Virus record (IMG/VR): IMGVR_UViG_2778261252_000010
Coordinates: 1 to 42,179 of that record
DNA length: 42,179 nucleotides
Strand: one strand, 5' to 3'
Origin: a virus
Lineage: Duplodnaviria > Heunggongvirae > Uroviricota > Caudoviricetes
Shown: positions 1,009 through 38,041 of the stretch, in pieces
How positions within the stretch are numbered: position 1 is the first letter of the stretch
How the letters are laid out: every line of letters starts with the position of its first letter
Notes under the pieces: generated by a model
The model's database searches: none
What the model saw: only the letters and a program-made list of their open reading frames with translations
Told to the model about the DNA's origin: nothing
Made by a program: the position numbers and the translations under genes

Positions 1009-1083
1009 GTCCTCTTAGTTAAATGGATATAACGAGCCCCTCCTAAGGGCTAATTGCAGGTTCGATTCCTGCAGGGGACACCA
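1009..1083 (+). tRNA. argW: tRNA-Arg (anticodon CCU)
   Basis: 75 nt folding as a cloverleaf: acceptor GTCCTCT/AGGGGAC, anticodon stem AGCCC/GGGCT with loop CTCCTAA (anticodon CCT), T-arm GCAGG-TTCGATT-CCTGC, 3' ACCA. Confidence 0.85.
1069..1083. repeat. attL core: 15-bp CTGCAGGGGACACCA at the tRNA 3' end, repeated at 40854..40868
   Basis: Exact 15-bp direct repeat at both prophage borders; the left copy is the 3' terminus of argW. Confidence 0.7.
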
Positions 1084-32406: not shown

Positions 32407-33114
32407 ATGGTTCAGAATGAAAAAGTGCGCAAAGAATTCGCCCAGCGGCTAGCGCAAGCCTGTAAAGAAGCTGGTCTTGATGAACATGGTAGGGGGATGG
32501 CCATAGCCCGTGCCCTTTCTCTTTCGTCCAAAGGCGTTAGCAAATGGTTTAATGCTGAGTCTTTACCGCGTCAGGAAAAAATGAATGCGCTTGCGAAATT
32601 TCTAAACGTTGATGTTGTTTGGCTTCAGCACGGAACTTCGTTAAATGGAGCGAATGATGAAGATACTCTTTCATTTGTTGGCAAATTAAAAAAAGGGTTA
32701 GTGCGCGTGGTTGGTGAGGCAATTCTTGGTGTTGATGGTGCCATCGAGATGACCGAAGAGCGCGATGGGTGGCTCAAAATTTATAGCGATGATCCTGATG
32801 CCTTTGGTCTTCGTGTGAAAGGAGACAGCATGTGGCCCAGAATAAAATCAGGAGAATATGTACTCATTGAGCCTAACACCAAAGTCTTCCCGGGTGATGA
32901 GGTGTTTGTCAGAACCATCGAAGGACACAACATGATCAAGATTCTTGGCTATGACAGAGATGGAGAATACCAGTTTACAAGCATCAACCAAGACCACAGG
33001 CCAATAACGTTGCCTTATCATCAAGTAGCAAAGGTGGAGTATGTGGCTGGTATTCTGAAGCAATCTCGTCATCTGGATGACATCGAGGCAAGGGAGTGGC
33101 TGAAAAATTCGTGA
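32407..33114 (+). CDS. CI-type prophage repressor (HTH plus LexA-like S24 peptidase domain)
   Basis: 235 aa; N-terminal HTH; C-terminal autocleavage domain with GDSM Ser motif and downstream Lys. Confidence 0.8.
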   Translation: MVQNEKVRKEFAQRLAQACKEAGLDEHGRGMAIARALSLSSKGVSKWFNAESLPRQEKMNALAKFLNVDVVWLQHGTSLNGANDEDTLSFVGKLKKGLVRVVGEAILGVDGAIEMTEERDGWLKIYSDDPDAFGLRVKGDSMWPRIKSGEYVLIEPNTKVFPGDEVFVRTIEGHNMIKILGYDRDGEYQFTSINQDHRPITLPYHQVAKVEYVAGILKQSRHLDDIEAREWLKNS

Positions 33115-33148: not shown

Positions 33149-34069
33149 ATGAGACGTTTGGGTGATTCAACGCAGCGAAAAAGGGTAATTCAATTAATGG
33201 AACATGATGATTTACAGCAATTACCATCCCCATTCGCAAAATGGAAGGGGAAGATCGACTTAGGTGGTGAAAGTATTGATTGCTATGTGCTTGACACTGG
33301 ACATCGTGTTATAGCTTTGCGAGCAACTGTAAAAGCAATTGCCAATGCGGAGTCAGGAGACCTGGCTAAATTTATTGGCGTTAGCTCACTTAATGGCTTT
33401 ATAGACAAAGACTTAGTCCTGGCCGAACTCATAGAGTTTTCCATACCAGGAACCCAATTTAAGAGCCAAGGACTTAAGACTGAGCAATTTGAATTGATTT
33501 GTCGCGGCTATGTACAGGCGCTATACAAAGGCGCGCCATTGACAGATAGACAGCGAGAAATAGCAATTAAATGTGCTGTATTAACAGCTGGTTTAACTAG
33601 GACTGGGTTAGATGCTCTAATTGATGAGGCTACTGGGTATCAGTATGAGCGTGCAGAGGATGCTCTCCAAGTAAAACTCAGGGCGTTCATCGCTGAGGAA
33701 CTAAGAGCATGGGAAAAAACATTTCCTGATGAGTTATGGGAAGAATTTGGTAGATTGACAGGATGGAGCACCCCATTGCAATCAAGGCCCAAATGGTGGG
33801 GGAAATTGGTTATAGAGTTAATTTATGACACTCTTGACGAAGATGTGGCTAAATATCTTAAAGAAAACAAGCCTGCGGCAGGAGTTCACTGGCATAGACA
33901 GTTAACCGAGAACCTAGGTGTAAGGCAGCTTGTATCAAGGTGCTGGGAGGTTATTGGGGTCGCAAAAACATGCGACACCATGCATGAGCTAAGAAGTCGA
34001 GTTGCTCAACACTATGGAAAGAAACCTGTTCAAATGACAATGTATTTACCGGAAAAAGAAATTAAATAA
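33149..34069 (+). CDS. Hypothetical protein in the rexAB position (co-oriented with cI), paralog of 6201..7187; candidate lysogen-expressed exclusion/defense gene
   Basis: 306-aa ORF 35 bp after cI and before the terminator and OL/pL; shares sequence blocks with 6201..7187. Confidence 0.65.
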   Translation: MRRLGDSTQRKRVIQLMEHDDLQQLPSPFAKWKGKIDLGGESIDCYVLDTGHRVIALRATVKAIANAESGDLAKFIGVSSLNGFIDKDLVLAELIEFSIPGTQFKSQGLKTEQFELICRGYVQALYKGAPLTDRQREIAIKCAVLTAGLTRTGLDALIDEATGYQYERAEDALQVKLRAFIAEELRAWEKTFPDELWEEFGRLTGWSTPLQSRPKWWGKLVIELIYDTLDEDVAKYLKENKPAAGVHWHRQLTENLGVRQLVSRCWEVIGVAKTCDTMHELRSRVAQHYGKKPVQMTMYLPEKEIK

Positions 34070-34076
34070 TATACAA

Positions 34077-34102
34077 CCCGGCCTCAGCGCCGGGTTTTCT
34101 TT
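34077..34102 (+). terminator. Intrinsic terminator ending the cI operon
   Basis: CCCGGC-ctcagc-GCCGGG hairpin followed by TTTTCTTT. Confidence 0.65.
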
Positions 34103-34279
34103 GCCTCACGATCCCCACACCTAATAACACCTTAACCAATTGTATTTATTGAAAAATTGATAGATACAACTTGCTAAACCACGAAATTCTGATCCCTGCC
34201 GCATAACCTTCATCCGCAACATTTACAAAAATAAATTTCCTTATATATCAAAATCATATTTCGTAGAGTTAATAAATCA

Positions 34280-34330
34280 CAAAATTTTCGTACCAATAGT
34301 TCTTGATAATGTCGAACTATTGGTTCATTA
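34280..34330. promoter_or_regulatory. Putative OL/pL operator-promoter region
   Basis: AT-rich region upstream of nutL and N containing a TCGTAC half-site (34288..34293) and a 10-bp inverted repeat ACCAATAGTT/AACTATTGGT. Confidence 0.4.
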
Positions 34331-34377
34331 TTATCGCCATCAGCAGGAAGCTGGAAGCCAAACGGAACAGATTGGCA

Positions 34378-34412
34378 GGCTCTTTAACTTCGATGGGGCG
34401 CTGACAAAGCGC
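34378..34412 (+). promoter_or_regulatory. nutL (boxA plus boxB, P22 type)
   Basis: boxA GGCTCTTTAAC and boxB hairpin GCGC-TGACAAA-GCGC, as remembered for P22 boxB. Confidence 0.65.
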
Positions 34413-34531
34413 AAACAGATACCAAACGAGATGGGTTTGGCGGTGATGTGAATTGCAGCTGCAACGACAGCAACCAGAAGATCAGCACCTGGCGCATCAC
34501 CACCAAAGCCATTTCACATGAGGAAAATATC

Positions 34532-34840
34532 ATGACGGTAATCGTGTACGGAAAATCAACATTTGCAGGAAATGCCAAAACTCGCCGTCATGAGCGGCGC
34601 AGAAAGCTGGCTATCGAGCGTGATGCTATATGCAACATCATCGATTCGATCTTCGGCACAGACAGTGAGGAACCTGTTCAGGAAGCCCCGAGAAAGCGTT
34701 TAAGCATTTCTGAAAAAGCAATATCACTCGGCATCATTAGCAAATCAAATACAGATGCGAATAGCGGAAGCGTTTGTTTGCCTGAAGTTGCACTGTATGC
34801 TGCTGGTTACAGAAGGCAAAAACTAATTACAGCGAGGTAA
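34532..34840 (+). CDS. Antiterminator N (P22 gene 24 type)
   Basis: 102 aa from the Met with GAGGA ribosome-binding site; arginine-rich motif GNAKTRRHERRRKLAIER matches the P22 N boxB-binding peptide from memory. Confidence 0.8.
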   Translation: MTVIVYGKSTFAGNAKTRRHERRRKLAIERDAICNIIDSIFGTDSEEPVQEAPRKRLSISEKAISLGIISKSNTDANSGSVCLPEVALYAAGYRRQKLITAR

Positions 34841-34842
34841 AA

Positions 34843-35121
34843 ATGAAGCCTAGCATAACAATCAAGCCAGCGAGAGATAATAGCAGGAACCGCCGCAGAG
34901 AGGCCAGGAAGGCAGAAAGAGCAGAGAAGGAAAACAAGAGCCGGGAGGAGAGAAAGGCAGAGATTTTGGAAAAAGGAGGATTGGCTGCCGTGAGGGGTGA
35001 AAAAGCAGCTGAATTAGCAGTAGCTCACGAAAAGACAGAGATTGACAATAATTCTGGTGGAGATGCAATGTTTAAAGTTGTCAATCACGCCCATCAACGA
35101 AACCCCAAAAAGAAATGGTAA
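34843..35121 (+). CDS. Small highly charged (Lys/Arg/Glu-rich) hypothetical protein
   Basis: 92-aa ORF immediately after N and followed by a terminator. Confidence 0.5.
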   Translation: MKPSITIKPARDNSRNRRREARKAERAEKENKSREERKAEILEKGGLAAVRGEKAAELAVAHEKTEIDNNSGGDAMFKVVNHAHQRNPKKKW

Positions 35122-35125
35122 TCAA

Positions 35126-35149
35126 CCCGTCCAAGACGGGTTTTTTATT
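35126..35149 (+). terminator. Intrinsic terminator (tL1-like)
   Basis: CCCGTC-caa-GACGGG hairpin followed by TTTTTTATT. Confidence 0.65.
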
Positions 35150-35178
35150 GCAAGCAAACCACTTATTTGAGATGAGAT

Positions 35179-35544
35179 ATGGAAGAACAAGCAAACAAGA
35201 TTCTCGTAGAACTACTGCAAAAAGCCAGTAATGGAATAGACGCGGCTGTTTCATTTAGCCAGGCACAGATTCCTGATGTCATCCATCAGCTTTTGATGTG
35301 GCACGCCGTATCATCAGCTGGAATTCAGGCTATCTGTGTATTGGTGATTATAGCGTGTGTTTATCTGATGATTTTTGCATGGAATAAAGGAGATGATGTA
35401 GATATTATTCTTTTATCACTACTTGTCACATCAGGAATAGCGATTACTTCTATTGTTGTTTTCTTCAATTATTTCGACTGGCTGAAAATTTGGCTTGCTC
35501 CAAAACTTTACCTTATCGAATATGCCGCATCATTGGTTAAGTAA
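35179..35544 (+). CDS. Membrane protein with predicted transmembrane helices, in the sieB-like position
   Basis: 121-aa ORF, AT-rich; hydrophobic segments AGIQAICVLVIIACVYLMIFAW and IILLSLLVTSGIAITSIVVFF. Confidence 0.55.
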   Translation: MEEQANKILVELLQKASNGIDAAVSFSQAQIPDVIHQLLMWHAVSSAGIQAICVLVIIACVYLMIFAWNKGDDVDIILLSLLVTSGIAITSIVVFFNYFDWLKIWLAPKLYLIEYAASLVK

Positions 35545-35597
35545 TTTCATGCCGCATAGTCGGACTTTATTTTTGGCATAAACAATATGGGGTAAAA

Positions 35598-35924
35598 ATG
35601 AAAGTTTTAATGGTTTATGAAAATGTTCCAGAGTCGACTGAAATCTATATTTTTGATGCCAATGAAGATGAAGTTAACGATTTGAAATTGTCTCACGGCA
35701 ATTACACAAATGCTAATTGTGATGAAAGTATCGAAAAAGCACTATCACGTGTTCTTGTCAGAATTAGTGTTCCAGAACATTGTGATGATGATTGGCTTTC
35801 TTATTGTGGAGCGGTAAAAACTGATGCAGGAAAATGGAGTAAAAGTAAAGTTGATAACTCAACTCCAATCATTATGAAAGATAGTGATATTGAAATGGTA
35901 ATAATAACCGGAATGATTATGTAG
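35598..35924 (+). CDS. Hypothetical acidic protein (AT-rich moron)
   Basis: 108-aa ORF, about one-third GC by eye; followed by a 9-bp-stem hairpin. Confidence 0.5.
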   Translation: MKVLMVYENVPESTEIYIFDANEDEVNDLKLSHGNYTNANCDESIEKALSRVLVRISVPEHCDDDWLSYCGAVKTDAGKWSKSKVDNSTPIIMKDSDIEMVIITGMIM

Positions 35925-36030
35925 GCTGCGAATAAGCACTGTGTATTCATTCCAACGAGTGAATACACGGAGCAATGTCGCTCGTAACTAAACAGGAGCC
36001 GACTTGTTCTGATTATTGAAAATCTTCTTT

Positions 36031-36057
36031 GCCCTCCAGTGTGAGGGCAATTTTTTT
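36031..36057 (+). terminator. Intrinsic terminator inside the early-left operon
   Basis: GCCCTC-cagtgt-GAGGGC hairpin followed by AATTTTTTT, immediately upstream of the ribosome-binding site of the next gene. Confidence 0.6.
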
Positions 36058-36069
36058 GACGGAGGAATT

Positions 36070-36486
36070 ATGGAAATTACAGATATTCTGGTTAATCCAG
36101 ATAATTACGACCAATTCAATATCTCTACTCAATCAGTTGATTTGGGATGTGCAACTGTCAGCGCATGGCTACTTAATGGTAAACAGTTGGATAAATGCCT
36201 TGATGCACATATGACGGTTAACAGCTTCCTTGCAGAAAAGACACACTGGCAAGATGCTGGAGGGAAATATGCTGGATGGCTTGAAAGCATGGGATTTGAA
36301 TATCAATCTGATGAAGGTTGGTGGAGCCTTATAGCTGTAACGCCTGAGACAATAGAATGCTTCGTTAAATACTCAAACGACGATGACTATAAACACCAGG
36401 TAGACTCTGCGATAGAAAGATACAAAAGAAAATCGTTCAACCACGAAATATCATCAGTTCTTGATTTCATAGAAGTCTTCAAATAA
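36070..36486 (+). CDS. Hypothetical protein (138 aa), AT-rich moron
   Basis: ORF-track ORF 36016..36486; start chosen at ATG 36070 with a GGAGG ribosome-binding site. Confidence 0.55.
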   Translation: MEITDILVNPDNYDQFNISTQSVDLGCATVSAWLLNGKQLDKCLDAHMTVNSFLAEKTHWQDAGGKYAGWLESMGFEYQSDEGWWSLIAVTPETIECFVKYSNDDDYKHQVDSAIERYKRKSFNHEISSVLDFIEVFK

Positions 36487-36569
36487 GCCGCCAAGCGCGG
36501 CTTTACCGCATACCAATAACGCTTCACTCGAGGCGTTTTCGTTATGCAATCAAACAGAAGGAGCATCCT

Positions 36570-36740
36570 ATGCAACAGTTCGCTATTGCAGGGGCGGCAT
36601 CGGTTCGCCCTTTCAACCCGATTTTATCGGTACAACATTCACGAAAAAACATTTTAACCGGAGCAGACTTTAAACAACCAAGAATGAAAAGCTTGCTCGA
36701 AAAGCTTTGGGATATTTTGAAACAACAAGGCCGTCCATGA
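36570..36740 (+). CDS. CIII-like protein (putative FtsH inhibitor)
   Basis: 56 aa, below the ORF-track cutoff; AAGGAG ribosome-binding site; MQQFAIAG...SLLEKLWDILKQQGRP resembles lambda CIII MQYAIAG...LIDILNQPGVP. Confidence 0.5.
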   Translation: MQQFAIAGAASVRPFNPILSVQHSRKNILTGADFKQPRMKSLLEKLWDILKQQGRP

Positions 36741-36821
36741 GTTTTACAGATAACTGGTCAGACGAAGAATTCATTCGTCAGATGAACAAAATGCTCAATC
36801 AGCACAAAGAACAGGAGAAAG

Positions 36822-37133
36822 ATGATGATTCTGACTCTGAATGATAAGCGTGAAATATCGCAAATCATCGCAAGTTTTACCGATGATGATTACGAACGAA
36901 TCAACAGTGAAGTTGATCGCCTCTGCAAACGTTGCGACCCAATAAGCGAAATGCTTCGCTCATATAAACCAGATGAACACACTAAGGACGCTATCGACTG
37001 GCTGGAAGATGATGACTGTAACTATCAGGAAAAAGCCGCTGAATGGTTCTGGGATGCAATAACCGAAAGAGTTAAAGCTGAATATGCCTTCGCAATATTT
37101 AAACGCAGACACATTTTTGGAGAAGCTGCATGA
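36822..37133 (+). CDS. Hypothetical early protein
   Basis: 103-aa ORF with AGGAG ribosome-binding site; stop overlaps the RecT start (ATGA). Confidence 0.55.
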   Translation: MMILTLNDKREISQIIASFTDDDYERINSEVDRLCKRCDPISEMLRSYKPDEHTKDAIDWLEDDDCNYQEKAAEWFWDAITERVKAEYAFAIFKRRHIFGEAA

Positions 37134-38041
37134 GCAATATCGTTGAATTCGTTAAACAGCAGGAGCAGTTATTCTGCGGAGCATTGACTGAACAGACGGT
37201 GACATGGGCTAAGGAAAGCCAGTTTGCAATTCAGTATTTCCAGAAAAACGATTACCTGGCTAAAACAGCACTGGCAAATCCAACCAGCGCACAGAACGCC
37301 ATCATCAATGTTGCGGCGATCGGCATCACCTTAAACCCGGCCAGCAAACTGGCTTATCTGGTTCCTCGCGACGGCATGGTGTGCCTTGATATCAGCTATA
37401 TGGGATTGCTCCATATTGCAATGGAGTCTGGTGTTATCTCATGGGGTCAGGCAAAACTTGTTCATGCTAACGATACCTATGAGTCAAACGGGCTTGATAA
37501 AGCACCAACCCATAAATACAACGCCTTCGGTGACCGTGGTGATATCGTTGGCGTTTACTGCACAGTTAAGACGCCAGCAGGTGATTATCTAACGGAAGAG
37601 ATGAGTCTGGCTGAAATTGAGGCTGTAAGGAAAACAAGCAAGGCAGCATTCAGCGATAAAGGACCATGGGTAAATCACTGGAATGAGATGGCGCGAAAGA
37701 CGGTCGTAAAGCGTGCAAGCAAGTATTGGCCTAAGGCATCACGCCTTGATAGTGCTATTCACGTACTAAACGAAGAAGAAGGCGTGTGGACCGAACCAGT
37801 TATGCCGCACAAATCAGAGGAAGATATCCGCGAAGATGAACGGAAACGCCAGCAGGAAATAATGGATAAAGCACAACTTCTTTGCGATGAAATGGCTCAG
37901 GCAGAAAACATGGATGATTTGAAGCGATATTTTGCAGAAGCATATCGCCTGACATCTGGAATGAAATTGCAGCAGAACGTACAAGCCATTTACATAGAAT
38001 GCAAAGCGAAACTGGAGGTTGCCAGTGAGCAAACTGTATGA
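37130..38041 (+). CDS. RecT-family single-strand annealing protein
   Basis: 303 aa; GPWVNHWNEMARKTVVKR matches the RecT signature GPWVTHWEEMAKKTAIRR. Confidence 0.8.
   Translation: MSNIVEFVKQQEQLFCGALTEQTVTWAKESQFAIQYFQKNDYLAKTALANPTSAQNAIINVAAIGITLNPASKLAYLVPRDGMVCLDISYMGLLHIAMESGVISWGQAKLVHANDTYESNGLDKAPTHKYNAFGDRGDIVGVYCTVKTPAGDYLTEEMSLAEIEAVRKTSKAAFSDKGPWVNHWNEMARKTVVKRASKYWPKASRLDSAIHVLNEEEGVWTEPVMPHKSEEDIREDERKRQQEIMDKAQLLCDEMAQAENMDDLKRYFAEAYRLTSGMKLQQNVQAIYIECKAKLEVASEQTV

What the first reader, a model, noticed from the sequence alone, without database searches (positions are those of the whole stretch)
35179..36486. AT-rich three-gene moron bracketed by intrinsic terminators in the early-left operon
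Three ORFs (121-aa membrane protein, 108-aa acidic protein, 138-aa protein) have conspicuously lower GC than the flanking N, cIII-like and RecT genes. They are bounded by hairpin-plus-T-run terminators at 35126..35149 and 36031..36057, and a 9-bp-stem hairpin follows the second gene. This is the signature of a horizontally acquired cassette; the P22 equivalent of this position carries sieB-type exclusion functions. None of the three proteins matches a family I can name.
Basis: partly seen in the sequence, partly recalled or inferred. Interest (0 to 1): 0.65.

Follow-up and report, generated by a model that had tools for sequence, protein, structure and literature searches.

The report
Three swappable accessory genes, early-left operon
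The AT-rich stretch is real, but it is three separately exchangeable single-gene modules of unknown function in the well-known variable N-to-cIII region of a P22-like prophage, not one imported cassette, and the terminators around them are conserved lambda-family boundary sequences.

Summary

- The three genes assort independently. In 128 related loci none carries all three. Precise empty sites exist for ORF2 (35585|35936) and ORF3 (36056|36508).
- In 5,426 complete E. coli genomes each gene occurs in 16-45 genomes. Some part of 35100-36560, mostly the boundary sequences, matches in 2,254.
- The terminators belong to conserved boundaries. 35936-36056 is 98.3% identical to phage lambda's ral-ea10 (tL2) intergenic region.
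- No promoter fits between any terminator and the next start codon. All three genes point the same way as pL, downstream of a P22-type nutL and N. They are therefore most likely N-dependent delayed-early genes, silent in the lysogen.
- None resembles SieB, Ral, Kil, gp17 or Ea10.

All three have homologues in virulent phages (T4-like, rV5-like, phi92-like). That favours a role in lytic growth, such as host takeover or counter-defence; this step is inferred.

ORF2 gives a very confident model (pLDDT 96.7) with no match among solved structures. ORF1 belongs to the large Sf6 gp34 family, which has conserved termini and a hypervariable membrane hairpin.

The parts
34303..34331 (+). pL-like promoter (TTGATA, 17-nt spacer, CATTAT) upstream of N
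   Evidence: Consensus scan. It sits between the terminator after the cI-P63C unit and nutL. It is a consensus match only.
34398..34412 (+). nutL boxB hairpin, GCGCTGACAAAGCGC (P22 type)
   Evidence: Read directly from the sequence. Identity with P22 boxB is from my own knowledge.
34529..34840 (+). Antiterminator N
   Evidence: Pfam PF25694 N_peptide, E = 1.9e-38.
34843..35121 (+). 92-aa basic protein, Nun-like (phrog_5632)
   Evidence: PHROG E = 1.5e-29; pI 10.2.
35124..35149 (+). Intrinsic terminator in the tL1 position; forms the left edge of the variable region
   Evidence: -13.3 kcal/mol, z = -4.2. The mosaic joint at 35153 lies just after it.
35153..35190 (+). Short boundary sequence with the ribosome-binding site, found upstream of several unrelated genes in other phages
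   Evidence: 94-97% identical copies in Sf6 (two copies), PA28, HK633 and others; 84% in lambda.
35179..35544 (+). ORF1: 121-aa membrane protein with two hydrophobic segments, Sf6 gp34 family (phrog_3054)
   Evidence: PHROG E = 1.3e-46. 574 clusters of homologues, including one named 'Gene 34 protein'. Hydropathy and segment conservation.
35290..35470 (+). Hypervariable core of ORF1 (both hydrophobic segments and the loop between them), bounded by mosaic joints inside the gene
   Evidence: Joints at 35289|35290 and 35471/35479. Mean pairwise identity in the family is 0.22 here, against 0.77 for the N-terminal and 0.89 for the C-terminal part.
35586..35935 (+). ORF2 module: a 350-bp single-gene insertion carrying a ribosome-binding site and the coding sequence 35598-35924 (108 aa, phrog_4658)
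   Evidence: Empty site 35585|35936 in Sf6, HK633, 118970_sal4, L013, L055 and L117. PHROG E = 3.3e-38. AlphaFold2 pLDDT 96.7.
35936..36056 (+). Conserved boundary sequence (Sf6 'bsq4'), homologous to the lambda tL2 region. Holds hairpin 35941-35968 and the stem of terminator 36029-36050; its T-run extends to 36057, across the joint.
   Evidence: 98.3% identical to lambda 33925-34045. The Sf6 record annotates it as bsq4 and terminator tL2A. Present in 113 of 131 loci held.
36057..36507 (+). ORF3 module: a 451-bp single-gene insertion carrying a ribosome-binding site, the coding sequence 36070-36486 (138 aa, phrog_8967) and a small GC hairpin at 36487-36501
   Evidence: Empty site 36055/36056|36508 in L003, L081 and L117. 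Lambda has ea10, Sf6 has gene 33 and PA28 has gp17 at this position. PHROG E = 2.7e-87.
36508..36563 (+). Conserved boundary upstream of cIII, with a terminator-like hairpin at 36518-36537 followed by TTTTCGTT
   Evidence: z = -3.7 for 36487-36569.
36570..36740 (+). cIII-like gene, the right-hand neighbour of the variable region
   Evidence: phrog_550, E = 1e-22.

Best explanation
The interval is the N-to-cIII accessory region of the early-left (pL) operon of a P22-like prophage integrated at argW. It is not one cassette. It holds three independently exchangeable single-gene modules (ORF1, ORF2, ORF3), separated by short boundary sequences that are almost identical across lambdoid phages and that contain the tL1-position and tL2 terminators.

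Shown: recombination at these shared boundaries swaps or inserts one gene at a time. This combination of three is therefore rare, and each gene keeps the low GC of its source.

Inferred from anatomy: the three genes have no promoters of their own. They are read from pL only after N, acting at a P22-type nutL, lets RNA polymerase pass the terminators. That makes them delayed-early genes, expressed on infection or induction and silent in the repressed prophage.

Inferred, weaker: all three families also occur in obligately virulent phages, one of them in a documented early region (RB16, near ndd). They therefore most likely act during lytic growth. ORF2 and ORF3 are small acidic cytoplasmic proteins and would be inhibitors of host or defence proteins. 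ORF1 would be a membrane-anchored early protein whose conserved N- and C-terminal parts form the working unit, held in the membrane by a hypervariable hairpin.
For: Architecture:
- The gene order is cI, P63C gene, terminator, pL, nutL, N, Nun-like gene, terminator, ORF1, ORF2, hairpins plus terminator, ORF3, hairpin, cIII, kil-like gene, RecT.

Independent assortment:
- Of 23 ORF3 loci, one has the close ORF1 allele and one has ORF2. Of 18 ORF2 loci, one has the close ORF1 allele and one has ORF3. None of the 128 loci has all three.
- Contigs carrying the identical ORF1 protein have ORF2+ORF3, or ORF2 alone, or two other small genes.

Joints and frequencies:
- Counts in 5,426 complete E. coli genomes: ORF2 16, ORF3 37, ORF1 core 45, any part of 35100-36560 (mostly the boundaries) 2,254, and 80% or more of the block in one place 0.
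- The boundary 35936-36056 is 98.3% identical to lambda and is annotated bsq4/tL2A in Sf6.

No own promoter:
- The gaps from terminator to start codon are 29 nt for ORF1 and 12 nt for ORF3.
- No promoter-like site at 8 or more of 12 matches lies in those gaps or in the 53-nt ORF1-ORF2 spacer.

Homologues in virulent phages:
- ORF2: 114 phage records, all below 60% identity. The listed ones are T4-like, Jedunavirus and other large lytic phages. The RB16 homologue lies among small genes next to ndd.
- ORF3: 115 records, all of about 130-140 kb; the classified ones are rV5-like Vequintavirinae.
- ORF1: phi92-like, N4-like, Vibrio and Pseudomonas phages.

Real, conserved proteins:
- ORF2 family alignment and model, pLDDT 96.7 and pTM 0.88. 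ORF1 family conservation pattern.
Against: - Expression timing is inferred from sequence alone. A weak or non-consensus promoter, or read-through, could give expression in the lysogen.
- Virulent phages also encode infection-time exclusion proteins, so presence in lytic phages does not exclude an exclusion role, especially for ORF1.
- No functional homologue was found for any of the three. The 'inhibitor of host or defence proteins' step rests only on size, charge, position and distribution.
- The ORF3 structure model is unreliable: one of five models reached pLDDT 75.8 and the others about 40.
- The three genes do occur together in at least two assemblies. The block can therefore travel as a unit within one recent prophage lineage.
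Confidence: 0.6

Rival explanations
1. One reading: one horizontally acquired three-gene moron with its own terminators, giving the lysogen a sieB-like superinfection exclusion function.
For: - GC is the lowest in the window, and terminators flank the block.
- The N-to-cIII region of lambda and P22-like phages does carry sieB.
- The trio recurs in two assemblies.
Against: - The genes assort independently, and empty sites exist for ORF2 and ORF3 separately.
- The terminators are conserved lambda-type boundaries, also present where the genes are absent.
- No promoter is available.
- sieB is on the opposite strand to N, coexists with ORF1 in 118970_sal4, and shows no profile similarity (hhalign probability below 1%).
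- There are no PADLOC hits beyond noise.
Confidence: 0.05
2. One or more of the genes, most plausibly the membrane protein ORF1, is an exclusion or abortive-infection factor. It would act either in the lysogen through leaky expression, or early in infection as T4 Imm does, blocking entry or growth of competing phages. The hypervariable membrane hairpin would be the surface engaged in the arms race.
For: - ORF1 is a small membrane protein with two hydrophobic segments.
- The core and the loop between the segments are hypervariable (pairwise identity 0.22, loop length variable), while the termini are conserved.
- There are weak PADLOC matches to '2TM effector' models, E = 0.05-0.13.
- The position is next to where sieB lies in other phages.
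Against: - The PADLOC hits are at noise level.
- Membrane segments often diverge fast simply because they are weakly constrained.
- No promoter is available for prophage expression.
- Nothing comparable can be said for ORF2 or ORF3.
Confidence: 0.2
3. The three ORFs are dispensable passengers with no selected function, carried along by recombination at the boundary sequences.
For: - Each gene is rare: 16-45 of 5,426 complete E. coli genomes.
- Empty sites are common.
- Frameshifted ORF2 copies exist.
Against: - Full-length conservation holds across distant phage groups: ORF2 at 27-44% identity over 108 aa with conserved motifs, and ORF1 termini at 77-89% identity across genera.
- ORF3 is 64-67% identical to homologues in rV5-like phages.
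- ORF2 gives a confident compact fold.
Confidence: 0.05

Closest known systems
Lambdoid mosaic modules joined at boundary sequences (Sf6 bsq4; the phage lambda N-sieB-ral-tL2-ea10-cIII region)
   Same: - The position in the pL operon is the same.
- The spacer 35936-36056 is 98.3% identical to lambda's ral-ea10 intergenic region and is annotated bsq4/tL2A in Sf6.
- Single genes are replaced exactly at these boundaries.
   Different: The occupants differ. Here they are a Nun-like gene, ORF1, ORF2 and ORF3, in place of sieB/orf28/ral and ea10 (lambda), genes 36/35(ral)/34 and 33 (Sf6), or gp17 (H-19B, PA28). ORF3 shows no similarity to gp17 or Ea10.
Morons in the sense of Hendrix and colleagues (an extra gene with its own promoter and terminator, deviant base composition, expressed from the prophage)
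   Same: - Base composition is deviant.
- ORF2 and ORF3 are clean insertions between sequences that are adjacent in related phages.
- The ORF3 module brings a small hairpin of its own.
   Different: No own promoter is detectable for any of the genes. The main terminators belong to the conserved backbone, not to the inserts. The block is three units, not one.
Sf6 gene 34 protein family (phrog_3054)
   Same: ORF1 is a full-length member (PHROG E = 1.3e-46). The first 111 nt and the last 70 nt or so of the gene are shared at 85-100% nucleotide identity with the 140-148-aa Sf6-type alleles.
   Different: ORF1 is the short 121-aa allele, with a 7-residue loop between the hydrophobic segments. Its central 60 residues are only about 20-30% identical to the Sf6-type alleles. 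No function is known for the family.
P22 and lambda SieB superinfection exclusion protein
   Same: Same neighbourhood, between N and cIII.
   Different: SieB has 184-192 residues and lies on the opposite strand to N. It coexists with ORF1 in 118970_sal4. There is no profile similarity.
Small early accessory genes of virulent phages (the RB16 small-gene cluster next to ndd; arrays of small ORFs in rV5-like and phi92-like phages)
   Same: Homologues of ORF2, ORF3 and ORF1 sit in such arrays.
   Different: Those homologues are also uncharacterised. Early timing is documented only for the T4-type ndd region, and that is from my own knowledge.

Membership tests
Moron (autonomous extra transcription unit in a prophage) | Inserted between two genes or sequences that are adjacent in related phages | tested here: met
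   Met for ORF2 (empty site 35585|35936) and for ORF3 (36056|36508) as separate units. Not met for the three-gene block as one unit.
Moron (autonomous extra transcription unit in a prophage) | Base composition different from the surrounding genome | tested here: met
   GC is 32.7-38.6% against 46.4% for the window, the lowest stretch in the window.
Moron (autonomous extra transcription unit in a prophage) | Own promoter upstream of the gene | tested here: not met
   No sigma-70-like site at 8 or more of 12 matches lies between a terminator and the next start codon. The gaps are 29 nt and 12 nt. This is a consensus scan only, so a non-canonical promoter is not excluded.
Moron (autonomous extra transcription unit in a prophage) | Own terminator | tested here: inconclusive
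   The strong terminators lie in conserved backbone boundaries, or straddle a joint as tL2 does; its T-run is rebuilt in the empty sites. Only the ORF3 module carries a small hairpin of its own (36487-36501, then UUU).
Moron (autonomous extra transcription unit in a prophage) | Expressed from the repressed prophage | not testable with these tools
   Needs transcript data from a lysogen.
SieB-type superinfection exclusion | Sequence or profile similarity to SieB | tested here: not met
   hhalign of the ORF1 family against P22-type SieB and lambda SieB gave probabilities of 0.1-0.2%. No Pfam or PHROG SieB hit for any of the three ORFs.
SieB-type superinfection exclusion | Gene on the opposite strand to N (as annotated), as an independently transcribed gene would be | tested here: not met
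   sieB lies on the opposite strand to N in lambda and in 118970_sal4. ORF1-3 point the same way as pL.
SieB-type superinfection exclusion | Aborts growth of superinfecting phages | not testable with these tools
   Needs a plating experiment.
Ral, Kil or other named early-left proteins | Match to the family profile | tested here: not met
   Pfam, PHROG and NCBIfam give no Ral or Kil hit for ORF1-3. A kil-like ORF lies separately at 36707-36844.
Sf6 gp34 family (phrog_3054) | Full-length profile match; conserved N-terminal (about 46 aa) and C-terminal (about 23 aa) segments flanking two hydrophobic segments | tested here: met
   ORF1: E = 1.3e-46 over residues 1-121. The family alignment has 23 invariant columns, all in the termini.
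phrog_4658 (unknown function) | Full-length profile match | tested here: met
   ORF2: E = 3.3e-38 over residues 1-108. 52 representatives found in 1.84 billion proteins.
phrog_8967 (unknown function) | Full-length profile match | tested here: met
   ORF3: E = 2.7e-87 over residues 1-138.
Lambda tL2-type boundary and terminator (Sf6 bsq4) | Nucleotide homology to lambda's ral-ea10 intergenic region, with a hairpin-plus-T-run terminator | tested here: met
   98.3% identity over 121 nt. The terminator was found by the scan and by folding. Termination activity itself was not tested.

The most novel reading that the evidence does not exclude
ORF2 founds a small family of about 108-residue proteins with a fold not seen in any solved structure. 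The family is shared between temperate lambdoid prophages and virulent T4-like, Jedunavirus and other enterobacterial phages. It would be a new early-expressed inhibitor of a host defence or host housekeeping protein. In parallel, the Sf6 gp34 family (ORF1) would be a new class of membrane-anchored early phage protein whose hypervariable membrane hairpin is an arms-race surface.
Probability: 0.3. Interest if true: 0.6.

Novelty: new member of a known kind. Interest (0 to 1): 0.35.

Why it matters
- The architecture is textbook lambdoid mosaicism. Its value here is as a clean worked example: exact joints, empty sites, and lambda-identical boundary terminators that double as recombination linkers.
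- The open part is the three proteins. They are uncharacterised, conserved, and shared with virulent phages.
- ORF2 in particular gives a near-perfect structure prediction with no solved relative.
- Genes in this slot with known functions are counter-defence or host-control factors (Ral and Kil; P22 gp17 from my own knowledge). These three are therefore reasonable candidates for new anti-defence or takeover functions.
- They are cheap to test, at 108-138 codons each.

Tried and rejected
Searches that gave nothing for ORF1-3:
- Pfam, NCBIfam, PADLOC and PDB sequence searches with single sequences, and with family profiles.
- Rfam on 33900-37200, where every match was far below its gathering score.
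- Full-text literature search for the RefSeq accessions and PHROG ids.

Structure searches:
- ORF2 model against BFVD: only uncharacterised phage proteins.
- The AlphaFold database library (afdb50) was not available.

Context of distant ORF2 homologues:
- The search for related loci with the ORF2 family alignment failed, because no stretch was conserved enough.
- Contigs holding two distant ORF2 homologues (P0136, P0144) were too short to give context.

Papers:
- The phage L, epsilon34 and lambdoid Chi-site papers give no function for these genes.
- The Sf6 experimental-evolution paper concerns nin-region deletions, not this region.

Hypotheses rejected:
- ORF3 is related to the genes that share its slot, gp17 or Ea10.
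- ORF1 is related to SieB.
- A promoter is hidden in the spacers.

Database quirk: the 90% cluster that holds ORF2 has an unrelated 210-aa Cys-rich representative. This is probably why one search returned so few homologues.
Full report
CONTEXT

The window holds a complete P22-like prophage. It has a P22-type coat protein, portal and tailspike head-binding domain. It is integrated next to tRNA-Arg(CCT) at 1009-1083, between a formate/nitrite-transporter gene and a LacY-like gene.

From 32.4 kb onward the + strand reads like the lambda immunity-left region:
- a cI-like repressor (32407-33114);
- a P63C-domain gene (33149-34069) followed by a bidirectional terminator (34075-34096);
- a pL-like promoter (34303-34331);
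- a boxB hairpin, GCGCTGACAAAGCGC (34398-34412), which from my own knowledge is the P22 nutL sequence;
- N (34529-34840; Pfam N_peptide, E = 1.9e-38);
- a 92-aa basic Nun-like gene (34843-35121; phrog_5632);
- the three ORFs of the finding;
- a cIII-like gene (36570-36740), a kil-like ORF, and RecT (37130-38041).

CHECK OF THE OBSERVATION

- The three ORFs have the stated lengths.
- ORF1 has two hydrophobic segments (about residues 47-68 and 76-98) and all three proteins are acidic (pI 4.4-4.8).
- GC of 35179-36486 is 37.5%, against a window mean of 46.4% (sd 3.2 for stretches of that length). No other 1308-bp stretch sampled in the window is lower.
- ORF2 is the extreme, at 32.7% GC and 22.9% at third codon positions.
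- Both terminators were found by the scan (35124-35142 plus a T-run; 36029-36050 plus T7). Terminator-like sites are enriched threefold in this 7-kb region (18 found, 5.7 +/- 2.4 expected).
- The spacers fold far better than shuffled controls, with z-scores of -4.2, -5.6 and -3.7.
- The hairpin after ORF2 is a 12-bp stem at 35941-35968.

WHAT IT IS: THREE MODULES, NOT ONE CASSETTE

No record holds the block as a unit. Megablast of 35100-36560 found 328 phage records and 2,254 of 5,426 complete E. coli genomes with a match. None has 80% or more of the query in one place. The matches fall into separate pieces.

I then fetched 128 related loci and searched them with the window's proteins.
- Of 23 loci with ORF3, one has the close ORF1 allele and one has ORF2.
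- Of 18 loci with ORF2, one has the close ORF1 allele, three have a 49-50% identical allele, and one has ORF3.
- None has all three.

Contigs that encode the identical ORF1 protein show three arrangements. Two assemblies have ORF2+ORF3 and look like the window's own lineage. Others have ORF2 with an empty ORF3 site, or two unrelated small genes in place of ORF2.

In complete E. coli genomes ORF2 occurs in 16, ORF3 in 37 and the ORF1 core in 45.

Blastn against representative loci gives exact joints.
- ORF2 is a 350-bp insert (35586-35935) between ...GGCATAAACAA and GAATAAGCACTGTG... These two sequences are contiguous in Sf6, HK633, Salmonella phage 118970_sal4 and others.
- ORF3 is a 451-bp insert (36057-36507) that begins right after the T-run of the terminator and ends at GCATACCAATAACGC. 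Three loci have this site empty.
- At the ORF3 position lambda carries ea10, Sf6 carries gene 33, and PA28 carries gp17; H-19B's gp17 lies at the same flanking sequences.

The sequences between the modules are the conserved part. 35936-36056 is 98.3% identical to lambda 33925-34045, the ral-ea10 intergenic region. The Sf6 record annotates it as boundary sequence bsq4 with terminator tL2A. It is present in 113 of the 131 loci held at that point, whatever genes flank it.

So the 'bracketing terminators' belong to the backbone, not to the inserts.

EXPRESSION LOGIC (INFERRED)

All three genes point the same way as pL. The distance from the end of a terminator to the next start codon is 29 nt for ORF1 and 12 nt for ORF3. 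The ORF1-ORF2 spacer is 53 nt. Even at a relaxed threshold (8 of 12 consensus positions) no promoter-like site lies in these gaps.

With N and a P22-type nutL upstream, the simplest reading is N-dependent delayed-early expression, as for lambda genes beyond tL1 and tL2. That would leave them silent in the repressed prophage.

This differs from sieB. In lambda and in 118970_sal4 sieB lies on the opposite strand to N, and in 118970_sal4 it coexists with ORF1.

THE PROTEINS

ORF1 is a full-length member of phrog_3054 (E = 1.3e-46). It belongs to a large family: 574 clusters at E <= 1e-3, found in Escherichia, Salmonella, Citrobacter, Pectobacterium, Serratia, Klebsiella and others, and including 'Gene 34 protein' of Sf6.
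- The family has a striking conservation pattern. Mean pairwise identity is 0.77 for residues 1-46 and 0.89 for residues 99-121, but 0.22 for the central part with both hydrophobic segments. The loop between the segments varies in length.
- The same pattern shows at the DNA level as mosaic joints inside the gene, at 35289|35290 and 35471/35479.
- More distant homologues (30-45% identity) occur in Vibrio phages, phi92-like and N4-like virulent phages, and a Pseudomonas phage.

ORF2 (phrog_4658) has 52 representatives among 1.84 billion proteins.
- Conserved positions are P11, H33, N38, G105 and a GKW motif.
- With that alignment AlphaFold2 gives pLDDT 96.7 and pTM 0.88, and all five models agree.
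- tblastn finds it in 114 phage records, all below 60% identity. The listed records are T4-like (RB16, RB43, KP27 and relatives), Jedunavirus and other large lytic phages. In RB16 it lies in the cluster of small genes next to ndd.

ORF3 (phrog_8967) is a narrow family of 10 clusters. It has 64-67% identical homologues in 115 phage records, all of about 130-140 kb; the classified ones are rV5-like Vequintavirinae.

None of the three resembles SieB, gp17 or Ea10 in profile comparisons. None resembles any Pfam, NCBIfam, PADLOC or PDB entry.

MOST LIKELY MECHANISM

- Shown: a variable region built from single-gene modules that recombine at lambda-family boundary sequences, which also carry the operon's terminators.
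- Inferred from anatomy: expression depends on N.
- Inferred from distribution: because each family also lives in obligately virulent phages, the selected function is likely exerted during lytic growth. That points to host takeover or counter-defence by the small acidic proteins ORF2 and ORF3, and a membrane-located early function for ORF1.

The main rival is that ORF1 is an exclusion factor, acting at infection time or through leaky expression. Its hypervariable membrane hairpin would fit an arms race, but weak constraint on membrane segments explains it equally well.

COMPARISON AND NOVELTY

The architecture is already known from lambda, P22, Sf6 and HK97-type comparisons. The terminators are homologues of lambda tL2 and of the terminator in the tL1 position.

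The block fails the defining moron features of an own promoter and a single unit. It meets deviant composition and clean insertion, for ORF2 and ORF3 individually.

The three proteins are catalogued but uncharacterised. ORF2's confident model without a solved relative is the most interesting item.

I rate the finding as new members of a known kind, with modest interest (0.35). The most novel reading is that ORF2, and perhaps ORF1, are new classes of early phage effectors. I give that about 0.3 probability, and it would merit about 0.6.

Noticed in passing
window 33149-34069 (terminator 34075-34096): A 306-aa P63C-domain protein (Pfam E = 2.5e-22; phrog_2384, unknown function) sits directly after the cI-like repressor on the same strand. 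It ends with a strong bidirectional terminator before pL, the position of rexAB in lambda. The slot is variable: other loci carry unrelated genes of 122, 145+107 or 290 aa there. It is a better candidate for a prophage-expressed defence gene than the three ORFs of the finding.
   Followed up: partly
window 34843-35121: A 92-aa very basic protein (pI 10.2) with an arginine-rich N-terminus starts 2 nt after the N stop codon. It matches phrog_5632, 'Nun-like transcription termination factor' (E = 1.5e-29). Carrying both N and a Nun-like gene in tandem is unusual enough to check. The first terminator of the finding follows this gene, not N.
   Followed up: partly
window 35179-35544; alignment A4: The Sf6 gp34 family has nearly invariant N-terminal (about 46 aa) and C-terminal (about 23 aa) segments around a hypervariable pair of hydrophobic segments and a loop of variable length. 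Mosaic joints lie inside the gene at 35289|35290 and 35471/35479.
   Followed up: yes
window 1009-1083, 1209-2399 and 40.2-41.3 kb: The prophage sits at tRNA-Arg(CCT) next to a formate/nitrite-transporter gene. The integrase is at the left end beside the tailspike gene, while the distal end of the pL operon is at the right end beside a LacY-like gene. The attachment site therefore appears to lie between the early-left operon and int. The att repeats were not mapped.
   Followed up: no
protein cluster of ORF2 (P0200, P0201, P0208): The 90%-identity cluster that contains ORF2 is represented by an unrelated 210-aa Cys-rich protein with many CxxC motifs. This is a clustering artefact and probably hid ORF2's own cluster from the word-indexed search.
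   Followed up: partly
phage records MG0656xx ('Campylobacter phage' C15, A13b, A150 and others): Records labelled Campylobacter phage carry ORF3 or ORF1 homologues.
   Followed up: no
window 36707-36844 and 36822-37133: A 45-aa acidic ORF overlaps the end of the cIII-like gene; its residues 11-30 are shared with many phages (phrog_17766 and phrog_2123). A 103-aa protein of phrog_3486 (unknown function) lies directly upstream of RecT. The segment 36737-36786 is 100% identical in many loci, which suggests another boundary sequence.
   Followed up: no
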